Shown here: positions 5,849 to 8,289 of the stretch, piece by piece
Numbering within the stretch: the first letter of the stretch is position 1
Layout of the letters: the number at the start of each line of letters is the position of its first letter
IMG/VR virus record: IMGVR_UViG_2541047814_000003
Coordinates: 1-11,196 of that record
Direction: 5' to 3' (one strand)
From: a virus
Lineage: Duplodnaviria; Heunggongvirae; Uroviricota; Caudoviricetes
DNA: 11,196 nt
Notes under the pieces: model-generated
Told to the model about the DNA's origin: nothing
Databases searched by the model: none
The model's input: the letters and a program-made list of their open reading frames with translations, nothing else
Position numbers and translations under genes: made by a program

Positions 5849-7666
5849 TTAATTTTTGCTGTCGTCATTAGTGACCGATACACATGATGGCATCCAGTCT
5901 TCTGATTCCTCCGTCAGTGTCACGTTTGAACGCAAACCGTGCTTCGTTTTCCGTTTCATATACTCCCTGCCATATTCCGCCATTGCCCCCGGCATATCTT
6001 TACCGAAGCGCGTCAGTGTTACAGGTTTACCAAACCCATGTGCCCTCATATAAGCCAGATAGGCATGATAGAGATACCTGCGTGGGCTGAATGGCACAAT
6101 TTCAGCATTACCCACTAACAGGCCATCACACATTACCGACGCCATGAGATAGCCGCAGAAGTCCACCAGCGAATCCCCCTCTCGCTTTATCGCCAGTGCT
6201 TCTTCAGATTTCTGCTGCTCATATAACAGGCGTCTGGCTTCGTCCTGGTCAGCAAACCGTGTAAGCAGATGGCGAATCACTACCGCCAGCTCACCTTCTA
6301 TTTTTTCCGCCAGCATTGGATCGCGTTCGTTCTCCGGTACAACTTCCGAAAAATTGAATATCACCCGACGACGTGAGATCCCCCCGCTGCGGTCACTGAA
6401 TGACATGGCGTTATTGTTAACCGCCAGCACTACTGCCGGAATACGCGTTGAGTAGGGGGCTTTGTGTTTCGGGTCAATTGCCACCTTGTCACCGCCTGTA
6501 ATGGCCTTAATTCCTGCGCCATCACCAGCGTAACGGGTCATATCCGGCATGATAATCAGCGAAAAGCCAACCACTAACGCGCGTTCCCTGGCATCTTCCA
6601 GCGCCTTCATGCTTGCCGATACCGTGTTGGCCTTACCCGCCAGCATGGTGCAAATCTCCGCCATCACGCTTTTACCACTTCCCCCTGGACCTGTTACCTC
6701 AATGAATAACTGCCAGTCGTACCGGTTCGCCAGCACCATGAATAATGCAGCCAGTACGCGATCCGCCTTGCGGTCATTCTCAGCCACCGAACGGCGTAAC
6801 CACTTCCAGAAATTCGGCGCATGTGTTGCCAGCGTTTCCCCCTCTGCTGGTGGGCTGAAAGGTAATTCACTGGCAATTAACAACCAGTCGTTTTTGTTAT
6901 GCTCCCGAAAATTACCTGTTCTGGTATCAAATACCCCGTTACTGAATCCAATCAGGTTACGGGCTGTATTCCCCATTACAGGCAAACTTAACTTCATGGT
7001 ATCGACCGCCGATTTAATGGCGTTCTGCGAATAGCTGATCTCCGCATCAATGAAAATCTGCGCCATAGCTCGCTGTAATTCTTTATCCTGTACTGGCTCC
7101 CATACAACGCCGTTGTAATGGTGAACAGTGTCAGAGTCGGCATGAATCGCCAGTTCACCGCCATAATGTGCCAGGAGAACTTCGCCGCGTTGACTTGCTC
7201 CCATCTGGTTAAGCGCCAGTGATGAAGCGTTATCGTCTTTTACCCGCTCTTTTTTCTTTACAGGCAGTTCAACTACCTTTTTCTTTTCCGTCAGCTCTCC
7301 CCGCTCACGTTCCAGATATTCGCGCCAGTTCTCCCGTTTCTGGCTGTGCATTCCTTCAGGGTAATAATCAGCATCCCTGACACCTGCCGCTGCCAGTTTC
7401 TGCCCGATGGTATTAACAAGCCCCGGACGCAATAACCCCGCCTGATAGAGACGCACGCGATAGCGTCCGTCCGGTACGATTTGCAGGTTGTCCAGTTCGG
7501 CAAGTTGTTGCTCTCCAAGCCAGACAGGAGGCACGTTATCGCCAGCCAGTCGCCCGTCCTGTTCCTGCCACTGCTTCGCATGTGCCCACGCATCACTACC
7601 CGCAAAAATGATGACTTCCGTCATTTTGTCACGCGGCTGGTGTTTTAAATTTGGCGCTTTTTTCAT
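5849..7666 (-). CDS. Replication protein, P4 alpha-like primase/helicase (D5_N-like region plus SF3 helicase; phage/plasmid primase P4-family C-terminal domain)
   Basis: 605 aa from ATG at 7666 (GGAGAG SD, 7-nt spacer; track start 7681 is GTG). Walker A VTGPGGSGKS; helicase-like context; TGTTCACC iterons immediately 3' of the gene. Confidence 0.9.
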   Translation of the reverse strand: MKKAPNLKHQPRDKMTEVIIFAGSDAWAHAKQWQEQDGRLAGDNVPPVWLGEQQLAELDNLQIVPDGRYRVRLYQAGLLRPGLVNTIGQKLAAAGVRDADYYPEGMHSQKRENWREYLERERGELTEKKKVVELPVKKKERVKDDNASSLALNQMGASQRGEVLLAHYGGELAIHADSDTVHHYNGVVWEPVQDKELQRAMAQIFIDAEISYSQNAIKSAVDTMKLSLPVMGNTARNLIGFSNGVFDTRTGNFREHNKNDWLLIASELPFSPPAEGETLATHAPNFWKWLRRSVAENDRKADRVLAALFMVLANRYDWQLFIEVTGPGGSGKSVMAEICTMLAGKANTVSASMKALEDARERALVVGFSLIIMPDMTRYAGDGAGIKAITGGDKVAIDPKHKAPYSTRIPAVVLAVNNNAMSFSDRSGGISRRRVIFNFSEVVPENERDPMLAEKIEGELAVVIRHLLTRFADQDEARRLLYEQQKSEEALAIKREGDSLVDFCGYLMASVMCDGLLVGNAEIVPFSPRRYLYHAYLAYMRAHGFGKPVTLTRFGKDMPGAMAEYGREYMKRKTKHGLRSNVTLTEESEDWMPSCVSVTNDDSKN

Positions 7667-7962
7667 TTCTGCTCTCTCCACGCGGCAATCATGTTTTTCA
7701 GTTCCTGTAGTTTTTTATCCACATTCACACGTGACACATGGTTTTTTCTGGAAAGCGGGATTTCCCGCCTGAATCTGCTAATAAAGATCTCCACGTTCAG
7801 CGAACTATGAAATGAATAGCCATCACGAATAAAATACACACGGTCAAACATCAGCTCTTTTACCGTTACTCTGTTACCGTTCTTATCCAGATAAATAGCG
7901 CCGGGGATAATTTTGGGGTGTGCATAACCGCTGGCAGTCAAGCCAGATAAATATGTTCTCAT
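7663..7962 (-). CDS. Hypothetical protein (99 aa), AT-rich cargo-like gene
   Basis: ATG at 7962 preceded by GGGGA; stop TGA overlaps the primase ATG (ATGA coupling at 7663-7666). Confidence 0.6.
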   Translation of the reverse strand: MRTYLSGLTASGYAHPKIIPGAIYLDKNGNRVTVKELMFDRVYFIRDGYSFHSSLNVEIFISRFRREIPLSRKNHVSRVNVDKKLQELKNMIAAWREQK

Positions 7963-7968
7963 GATTAT

Positions 7969-8289
7969 TTATCCCCGATTTGAATCAGTATTCGCTTTCT
8001 TTATGGCATTTAATGCATCTGTGGCATTTTCAATGGTGCACCGTAACGAAATATCAAACTGCCCAAGCATTGCCAGTAACAAACCGATATTACCCATATC
8101 AATGCGCATGGCCTTTTCGTCATAGTCCTCATTTTCTGACGCATGCCACATCAGGCTACCAATTGACGCAACAGCCATTGATATATTGTCAGTAGCCCCA
8201 TCAGCAGCGGAATAAACCTTTTTAGCAATATCATGCTCACAGTTAAAATGCGGATTAATCAGGTACTGGTAATTTGACATATCAGGCAT
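7969..8289 (-). CDS. Hypothetical protein (106 aa), AT-rich cargo-like gene
   Basis: ATG at 8289 preceded by GGGGGT with 5-nt spacer; overlaps upstream gene stop; sampled 100 bp (8001-8100) is about 40% G+C versus about 58% in a sampled primase segment. Confidence 0.6.
   Translation of the reverse strand: MPDMSNYQYLINPHFNCEHDIAKKVYSAADGATDNISMAVASIGSLMWHASENEDYDEKAMRIDMGNIGLLLAMLGQFDISLRCTIENATDALNAIKKANTDSNRG

What the first reader, a model, noticed from the sequence alone, without database searches (positions are those of the whole stretch)
7663..8289. AT-rich two-gene cassette of unknown proteins embedded in the replication operon
The 106-aa and 99-aa genes sit between the control region and the primase, are translationally coupled to their neighbours, and are distinctly AT-richer than the primase (about 40% versus 58% G+C in sampled 100-bp stretches), suggesting separately acquired cargo. 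This position corresponds by synteny to P4 anti-repressor/derepression genes (eps-like), so they could be helper-induction factors, or alternatively a small anti-phage or anti-defense module.
Basis: partly seen in the sequence, partly recalled or inferred. Interest (0 to 1): 0.6.

Follow-up and report, generated by a model that had tools for sequence, protein, structure and literature searches.

The report
Swappable two-gene module in E. coli satellite
The two small genes are real and form a swappable module in the early operon of an E. coli phage satellite (PICI): one is a divergent copy of the known RgdR/DUF4222 regulator found in all such islands, and the other is an uncharacterised acidic helical protein in the slot where phages P1 and P4 keep their anti-repressors.

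Summary
There are two minus-strand genes, 7969-8289 (106 aa) and 7663-7962 (99 aa). They are translationally coupled to an icd-like gene upstream and to the primase downstream. Their G+C is 41.5%, against 52-57% in the flanks.

The window is an EcCICFT073/OI-51-type phage-inducible chromosomal island inserted between clpS and cspD.

The 99-aa gene is not unknown. It is DUF4222, the RgdR family, whose O157:H7 member activates LEE type III secretion and represses motility. It is not cargo either. A 99-aa DUF4222 gene overlaps the start of the replication gene in every related E. coli island examined. The copy here belongs to a second clade, 33-35% identical to RgdR, with PGA in place of the RGD motif.

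The 106-aa gene encodes an acidic two-helix protein from a tiny family found only in satellite-type loci. It has no Pfam, PDB, BFVD or PADLOC match.

The block 7708-8286 is a mosaic replacement. Sister islands carry three or four unrelated small acidic genes plus an RgdR-clade gene there. The cassette is intact in 471 of 5426 complete E. coli genomes.

The synteny with P4 eps and P1 ant is real for ORF106, but there is no homology. Overall this is an ordinary mosaic satellite module with one gene of real unknown function, so interest is modest.

The parts
7969..8289 (-). ORF106. An acidic (pI 4.6) protein predicted as two long helices. It belongs to a small family found only in satellite-type loci (phrog_15327/phrog_6805). 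Its start overlaps the icd-like stop by 8 nt.
7663..7962 (-). ORF99. A DUF4222/RgdR-family protein of the second clade (PGA instead of RGD at residues 20-22). It is basic (pI 10.2), with an SH3/Tudor-like beta-barrel and a C-terminal helix. Its stop overlaps the primase ATG.
7708..8286 (.). Mosaic block with no detectable nucleotide similarity to sister PICIs. The icd and control region (8287 onward) is about 91% identical to them. Segment 7278-7707, which covers the rep 5' end and the DUF4222 3' end, is 73-75% identical.
8282..8485 (-). icd-like gene (NF033153), the upstream neighbour coupled to ORF106.
5849..7666 (-). P4-family primase/helicase (D5_N, DUF5906, Pox_D5). The real start is the ATG at 7666, within the ATGA overlap. 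The first ~122 aa form a separately recombining N-terminal module.
8592..8620 (-). Promoter-like site (TTGACA-17-TAAAGT) upstream of icd. It is a consensus match only.
5612..5841 (.). Putative replication origin. Nine GGTGAACAG iterons in both orientations lie in an AT-rich spacer just downstream of the primase.
9339..9635 (-). alpA-family activator gene. In the related island EcCICFT073, AlpA switches on the downstream operon.

Best explanation
The 627-bp block is one allelic version of the variable early-accessory segment of the rightward (here minus-strand) operon of an EcCICFT073/OI-51-type PICI. In the related island EcCICFT073 this operon is activated by AlpA. The gene order is alpA, icd-like, variable small acidic proteins, DUF4222, Rep, ori.

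Shown:
- ORF99 is a 99-aa DUF4222 protein. It belongs to a second, sharply separated clade of the RgdR family.
- In this family of E. coli islands a DUF4222 gene always sits immediately 5' of the replication gene and shares an ATGA overlap with it. This holds whichever replicase and origin the island carries.
- ORF106 is an acidic two-helix protein from a tiny family found only in satellite-type loci. Where the upstream DNA was available it lies downstream of the icd-like gene, and it is always upstream of the small gene that precedes rep.
- ORF106 plus the window-clade DUF4222 move as a linked pair within E. coli.

Inferred:
- ORF99, like RgdR, is a small basic DNA-binding protein of low sequence specificity that modulates transcription. 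It is made in step with Rep when the island is switched on. Any effect on host loci (LEE1, motility, curli) would be spill-over from a generic DNA- or nucleoid-directed activity, not a replicon-specific one.
- ORF106 is a protein-binding modulator made by translational coupling to icd. It occupies the position where P1 encodes Ant and P4 encodes Eps. Its target (helper repressor, host factor or Icd itself) is unknown.
For: - Element identity: int, alpA, icd-like, primase, SSB, PerC, lambda-E-type capsid, decoration protein and small terminase, all between clpS and cspD. An iteron origin follows the primase.
- ORF99: Pfam DUF4222 at 61 bits against a cut-off of 27. It is 33-35% identical to O157:H7 RgdR over the same 99 aa, with an invariant SGLTASG..HPK N-terminus and K35.
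- Clades: 102 versus 11 cluster representatives, with no intermediates.
- RgdR literature: it activates LEE1, represses motility, raises Congo-red binding and binds DNA non-specifically. It is stated to be encoded by all analysed E. coli PICIs.
- Fixed position overlapping rep is seen in L002-L005 and in the IMG/VR loci.
- The clade is uncoupled from Rep and ori type. L156 has an RgdR-clade gene with a window-type primase and the same iterons. L019 and L025 have the window-clade gene with other replicases and no such iterons.
- ORF106: 22 representatives at E<=0.001 among 1.84 billion proteins and a conserved IGxLM...Y...D...IG motif. All members hit phrog_15327 and phrog_6805.
- ORF106 keeps the same place after icd in Superficieibacter and six other distant loci.
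- It is predicted as two helices with pI 4.6.
- Linkage: 471 of 474 matching genomes carry the intact pair, and 68 of 68 window-clade DUF4222 loci carry ORF106.
- Synteny with P4 and P1.
Against: - No experiment exists on either window protein.
- ORF99 lacks the RGD motif that named the family. It is only about a third identical to tested RgdR proteins, so transfer of function is uncertain.
- The role of DUF4222 in the island's own life cycle has never been tested. In the literature it is treated as a virulence accessory gene.
- ORF106 has no informative homologue, so its protein-binding role is inference from composition and position alone.
Confidence: 0.65

Rival explanations
1. ORF106 is a helper-directed anti-repressor. 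It would be a functional analogue of P4 Eps or P1 Ant that binds a lambdoid helper repressor and derepresses the helper. The alternative small genes in sister islands would be versions specific to other helpers.
For: - In P4, eps overlaps the end of the icd-like ORF by 8 nt, as ORF106 does here.
- In P1, ant1 overlaps icd, and the record's annotation says icd is apparently required for ant expression.
- The slot is allelically diverse and filled with small acidic helical proteins.
- EcCIMP1-like PICIs are described as carrying a conserved antirepressor along with the primase.
Against: - There is no sequence or profile similarity to Eps (PF25738) or to any Pfam anti-repressor domain.
- PICIs of this type are described as induced by their helper, not as inducers of it.
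- ORF106 homologues keep the same position across genera at 25-45% identity. That suggests a conserved target, not a fast-changing phage repressor.
Confidence: 0.2
2. The cassette is part of an Icd-dependent abortive-infection or superinfection-exclusion response. When an infecting phage triggers the operon, the small proteins act with Icd-like to arrest the cell.
For: In ECOR61, a prophage-like six-gene operon containing an Icd-like gene and a DNA primase causes cell death when a phage accessory gene (orf24) is expressed. Suppressor transposon insertions fall in the Icd-like gene and in the two small hypothetical genes directly downstream of it, which is the same slot.
Against: - The ECOR61 small genes (about 62 and 64 aa) are different proteins.
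- The transposon hits may be polar.
- The authors named Icd-like as the likely effector.
- Neither window protein hits a PADLOC model.
- No phage-challenge data exist for this allele.
Confidence: 0.15
3. ORF99 is a replicon-specific replication accessory, such as an origin-binding or helicase-loading partner of the adjacent Rep protein.
For: It is invariably adjacent to rep and shares an ATGA overlap with it. RgdR binds DNA.
Against: - DUF4222 clades reassort freely against primase, RepA-helicase and other replicases, and against the origin iterons.
- RgdR DNA binding was non-specific.
- In other genera the same position holds an unrelated coiled-coil/HTH-like protein.
Confidence: 0.1
4. The pair is simply host-directed cargo. 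ORF99 would be a virulence or motility regulator like RgdR, and ORF106 an unrelated passenger, with no role in the island's own life cycle.
For: RgdR deletion lowers type III secretion and the whole-island (OI-51) deletion lowers sheep colonisation in uninduced cells. RgdR is treated as an accessory gene in the PICI literature. The lower G+C suggests import.
Against: - True cargo is rarely fixed in position and translationally fused to the replication gene across every allele type.
- Most carriers are strains without LEE, as Flockhart et al. already noted for the RgdR family.
- ORF106 also keeps its position across genera.
Confidence: 0.2

Closest known systems
RgdR (ECs1581) of E. coli O157:H7 OI-51/CP-933C/Sp7, Pfam DUF4222 (PF13973)
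   Same: Both are 99 aa and match DUF4222. They share the SGLTASG..HPK N-terminus and K35. Both are basic. Both sit immediately upstream of, and overlapping, the replication gene of the same kind of island.
   Different: ORF99 is only 33-35% identical and forms a separate clade with no intermediates. Residues 20-22 are PGA, not RGD. Its G+C is 42% against 51%. It is preceded by one 106-aa gene instead of three or four 70-154-aa genes. Its activity is untested.
P4 epsilon (helper derepression protein, Pfam PF25738) and P1 Ant1/Ant2
   Same: The first gene after the icd-like ORF is translationally coupled to it and lies upstream of the replication initiator. The overlap is 8 nt in P4 and in the window, and 4 nt in P1.
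   Different: No sequence or profile similarity. No C4/CI-type RNA was detected upstream. The helpers of this PICI type are lambdoid and induce the island. The island is not known to induce the helper.
ECOR61 Icd-like/primase operon (Silas et al., bioRxiv 10.1101/2023.04.06.535777)
   Same: It is an operon of an Icd-like gene, small hypothetical genes directly downstream, and a DNA primase. The small genes were hit in a functional screen.
   Different: The small proteins differ in size (about 62 and 64 aa). That locus could not be retrieved here, so homology was not tested.
EcCICFT073 (prototype Gram-negative PICI)
   Same: It has int, alpA, small ORFs, rgdR (c1493), pri-rep, an iteron ori, capsid-related genes and a terS-like gene. 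AlpA activates the operon.
   Different: This island is at a different integration site (clpS/cspD). It carries the second-clade DUF4222 and ORF106, and its ssb gene has a nonsense mutation.

Membership tests
RgdR / DUF4222 (PF13973) | Match to the Pfam DUF4222 model above the gathering threshold | tested here: met
   61.1 bits against a cut-off of 27, E 7e-17, residues 16-67. phrog_285 at 5e-21.
RgdR / DUF4222 (PF13973) | 99-aa protein with a conserved N-terminal SG(L/F)TASG motif and K35 | tested here: met
   Alignment with O157 RgdR and three other alleles. All 114 full-length representatives counted were selected for a length of 99 aa; K35 is present in 112 of them.
RgdR / DUF4222 (PF13973) | Gene immediately upstream of, and overlapping, the island's replication gene | tested here: met
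   ATGA overlap in the window. Same arrangement in L002-L005 and in the IMG/VR loci.
RgdR / DUF4222 (PF13973) | RGD tripeptide at residues 20-22, reported as important for T3S activation | tested here: not met
   The window protein has P20-G21-A22. All 11 window-clade representatives have PGA. The RgdR clade has xGD, with R in 55 of 102.
RgdR / DUF4222 (PF13973) | Activates the LEE1 promoter, represses motility, binds DNA | not testable with these tools
   Known only for ECs1581 and C1493.
P4 Eps / Derepression protein family (PF25738) | Sequence membership | tested here: not met
   P4 Eps hits PF25738 at 9e-51. ORF106 and ORF99 have no such hit at E<=1. blastp, hmmsearch and hhalign against P4 Eps were negative.
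P4 Eps / Derepression protein family (PF25738) | First gene after the icd-like ORF, with its start overlapping that ORF's end | tested here: met
   P4 eps is 7888-8175 and the icd-like ORF 8168-8584. Window ORF106 is 7969-8289 and icd 8282-8485.
P4 Eps / Derepression protein family (PF25738) | Binds and inactivates the helper repressor | not testable with these tools
   Needs induction and binding assays.
Known anti-phage defence systems (PADLOC-DB 2.0) | Match to any defence-system protein model | tested here: not met
   No hits for ORF106 or ORF99 at E<=1.
EcCICFT073/OI-51-type PICI (host element) | int, alpA and pri/rep in one direction, followed by an iteron origin; about 10-15 kb; no tail or lysis genes | tested here: met
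   Gene content. Iterons at 5612-5841. The island fills the 11.2-kb gap between clpS and yljB/cspD.

The most novel reading that the evidence does not exclude
The segment between icd and DUF4222 would be a diversifying effector slot of Gram-negative PICIs. Its proteins, made through translational coupling to icd, would each target a different helper or host factor: anti-repressors in the manner of P1 Ant and P4 Eps, or co-factors of Icd-mediated growth arrest. ORF106 would be a new family of such effectors. Separately, the universally Rep-coupled DUF4222 protein would be a generic anti-silencing or RNA-polymerase-directed factor. Its effects on LEE, motility and curli resemble, from general knowledge, loss of H-NS function.
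Probability: 0.2. Interest if true: 0.65.

Novelty: new member of a known kind. Interest (0 to 1): 0.35.

Why it matters
RgdR-family proteins influence type III secretion and motility in pathogenic E. coli, yet their mechanism and their role in the satellite itself are unknown. A DUF4222 gene is welded to the replication gene in every allele combination, and a second clade lacking the RGD motif is present in about 9% of complete E. coli genomes. Both points argue that the family has a core satellite function worth testing. ORF106 and its non-homologous counterparts occupy the slot that in P1 and P4 encodes anti-repressors and that scored in one abortive-infection screen. They are therefore reasonable candidates for satellite-helper or satellite-host interaction factors. 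Nothing here overturns current understanding of PICIs.

Tried and rejected
- ORF106 had no hits in Pfam, NCBIfam or PADLOC. ORF99 had no PADLOC hit, and its only NCBIfam hit was insignificant (E 0.058).
- tblastn of both proteins against 50,697 phage records found no match.
- PDB sequence searches with single sequences and with profiles found nothing significant.
- hhalign of the ORF106 family against the small proteins that fill the slot in sister islands, and against all P4 left-operon proteins, gave probabilities below 5%.
- Rfam (gathering thresholds on the whole window, and E<=1 on 7400-9700) found no C4/CI-type or other RNA. There are no tRNAs.
- The first related-loci run with the 12-sequence alignment failed for lack of a conserved stretch. 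The single genome-contig scan gave only one locus.
- The plus-strand ORFs inside the block (7961-8125, 7980-8195) are not annotated in RefSeq and were not pursued.
- 'Not real genes' was rejected on purifying selection and on cross-genus conservation.
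Full report
**What the window is**

All long genes run on the minus strand. In order they are:
- a tyrosine integrase (9958-11196);
- an AlpA-family regulator (9339-9635);
- an icd-like gene (8282-8485);
- the two genes of the finding;
- a P4-family primase/helicase (5849-7666);
- a small hypothetical gene, then SSB, a PerC-family gene, a lambda-E-type capsid protein, a decoration protein and a small terminase.

One gene runs the other way: a YlcI/YnfO gene lies on the plus strand at 8682-8987.

In complete E. coli genomes the same island sits between clpS and yljB/cspD. 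An AT-rich spacer with nine GGTGAACAG iterons follows the primase. This is the architecture of the EcCICFT073/OI-51 group of phage-inducible chromosomal islands, in which AlpA activates the downstream operon.

**The observation**

The 106-aa ORF (7969-8289) and the 99-aa ORF (7663-7962) are exactly where stated.
- Coupling: the ORF106 ATG lies inside the last codons of icd (ATGCCTGA). Six bases separate ORF106 from ORF99. The ORF99 stop shares ATGA with the primase start.
- Composition: G+C is 41.5% for the block, against 57% for icd and 52% for the adjoining 627 bp of the primase (51.4% for the whole primase). The contrast is real but smaller than '40 versus 58'.
- It is the most AT-rich coding stretch of the island. 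The only equally AT-rich 627-bp windows are centred on non-coding DNA.
- Both genes evolve under purifying selection, with pN/pS of 0.35 and 0.34.

**The block is a mosaic module**

Nucleotide similarity to sister islands is about 91% from 8287 rightwards, covering icd and the control region. It is 73-75% over 7278-7707, covering the 5' end of the replication gene plus the last ~15 codons of ORF99. Between 7708 and 8286 nothing aligns.

The icd-containing query (7400-8600) matches 1692 of 5426 complete E. coli genomes. The cassette is found in 474, and is intact in 471.

In sister islands the same interval holds three or four unrelated small genes (70-154 aa), all but two of them acidic, followed by a 99-aa DUF4222 gene. 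hhalign finds no relationship between those small proteins and ORF106.

**ORF99**

ORF99 matches Pfam DUF4222 at 61 bits against a cut-off of 27. The one studied member of the family is RgdR (ECs1581) of O157:H7 island OI-51.
- RgdR is a 99-aa basic protein that activates the LEE1 promoter and type III secretion, represses motility and increases Congo-red binding. It binds DNA without sequence specificity. Its mechanism is unknown.
- Fillol-Salom et al. state that RgdR is encoded by all E. coli PICIs they analysed.

I retrieved the O157 island next to roxA. Its DUF4222 protein carries RGD at residues 20-22 and is 33-35% identical to ORF99 over the same 99 residues. The two share an invariant SGLTASG..HPK N-terminus and K35.

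Among 114 full-length cluster representatives there are two discrete clades with no intermediates:
- 102 are RgdR-like. They have xGD at residues 20-22, and x is R in 55.
- 11 are window-like. All have PGA.

In every related E. coli locus examined, the DUF4222 gene ends where the replication gene begins. The clade does not track the replicase or the origin:
- L156 combines an RgdR-clade gene with a window-type primase and the same iterons.
- L019 and L025 combine the window clade with other replicases and lack those iterons.

This argues against a replicon-specific partner and for a generic activity.

From general knowledge, the RgdR phenotypes (LEE1 up, motility down, curli up) resemble reduced H-NS function. 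That is my inference and has not been tested.

**ORF106**

ORF106 has no Pfam, NCBIfam or PADLOC match and no phage-genome tblastn match.
- It hits two PHROG families of unknown function.
- An exhaustive profile search of 1.84 billion representative proteins found only 22 relatives at E<=0.001. Among them are ~100-aa proteins that are 23-40% identical to ORF106. They share the motif IGxLM(F/W)xA..N..Y......D...IG.
- The model shows two long helices (pLDDT 66), and the protein is acidic (pI 4.6).
- Fold and PDB sequence searches were uninformative.

Its position is conserved.
- In 76 IMG/VR loci the gene is followed after 9-15 bases by a 99-aa DUF4222 gene wherever the contig extends that far. 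In most it directly follows icd. In a few (L060, L064, L074, L077, L082) about 450-650 bases lie in between.
- In 2 of the 76 (L079, L082) the DUF4222 gene is RgdR-clade-like, so the two genes are separable.
- Conversely, all 68 window-clade DUF4222 genes in an independent sample are preceded by ORF106.
- In Superficieibacter and six further distant satellite-like loci, the ORF106 homologue again lies between the icd-like gene and the small gene before rep. In the six IMG/VR loci a further 56-87-aa ORF lies between icd and the homologue. There the rep-proximal small gene is an unrelated 112-122-aa coiled-coil/HTH-like protein.

**Comparison with P4 and P1**

- P4 has an AlpA-like ORF88, an icd-like ORF, eps (overlapping that ORF by 8 nt), ORF151, ORF106/DUF5375 and the alpha primase.
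- P1 has C4 RNA, icd, ant1 (overlapping icd; the annotation says icd is apparently required for ant expression), kilA and repL.

But ORF106 and ORF99 show no similarity to Eps, ORF151 or P4 ORF106, and no C4/CI-type RNA is detectable.

One functional precedent exists for the slot. In ECOR61, an operon with an Icd-like gene, small hypothetical genes directly downstream and a primase causes cell death when a phage accessory gene is expressed. Suppressor insertions fall in the Icd-like gene and the two small genes. Those proteins differ in size from ORF106, and I could not retrieve that locus.

**Verdict**

- It is a separately exchanged, lower-G+C two-gene module, and ORF106 does sit in the P4-eps/P1-ant position.
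- ORF99 is a member of a second clade of a known regulator family, and it is a fixed core gene, not cargo.
- Nothing ties either protein to known defence or anti-repressor families.

The best-supported reading is an allelic early-accessory module of a known kind of satellite. The function of ORF106, and the satellite-side function of DUF4222, remain open and can be tested by experiment.

Noticed in passing
window 4906-5319 (-): The island's ssb gene has a premature stop at codon 81 (W81 to stop) compared with the intact 136-aa SSB of a near-identical island (L163:6783-7193). It is probably a pseudogene in this copy.
   Followed up: partly
window 7300-7666 (-); loci L019, L023, L026, L029, L035, L043, L005: The first ~122-140 aa of the replication protein (phrog_2850) form a separately recombining module. 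It is 98-100% identical in islands whose remaining replicase differs, and 57-76% identical between primase-type and RepA-helicase-type proteins.
   Followed up: partly
window 5612-5841: Nine GGTGAACAG iterons in both orientations lie in a 32-37% G+C spacer directly after the primase. This is the likely PICI origin. The same iterons follow the window-type primase in L156.
   Followed up: partly
L006:6306-6674; L157-L162 (for example L160:2667-3005): In satellites of other genera, the gene directly upstream of and overlapping rep is not DUF4222. It is a 112-122-aa protein with an N-terminal coiled coil and an HTH-like segment (…TLAAE(F/M)G(I/L)ST(K/S)KAEELA…). It has no Pfam family and may be a functional analogue.
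   Followed up: no
window 8282-9328 (-) and 8682-8987 (+): A 348-aa minus-strand ORF ends in the icd-like domain and overlaps a plus-strand YlcI/YnfO gene. RefSeq annotates only the 67-aa icd. [quoted passage not shown]
   Followed up: no
window 8592-8620 (-): A near-consensus sigma-70 promoter-like site (TTGACA-17-TAAAGT) lies about 105 nt upstream of icd. It could drive icd-ORF106-ORF99-primase independently of the alpA promoter.
   Followed up: no
window 4650-4940 (-): A PerC-family gene lies next to ssb. PerC/Pch proteins, like RgdR, are LEE regulators carried by these islands.
   Followed up: no
L079:407-1030 and L082:3836-4459: Two rare recombinants have ORF106 (91-92% identical) followed by a DUF4222 allele that is 70% identical to RgdR and an L003-type primase. 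This shows that ORF106 and the DUF4222 clade can be separated.
   Followed up: partly
whole window: No complete E. coli genome matches the whole 11.2-kb window well (best 96% coverage at 96% identity), although the icd-to-primase segment is 100% identical in strain 1296KP. The island family is highly mosaic.
   Followed up: partly
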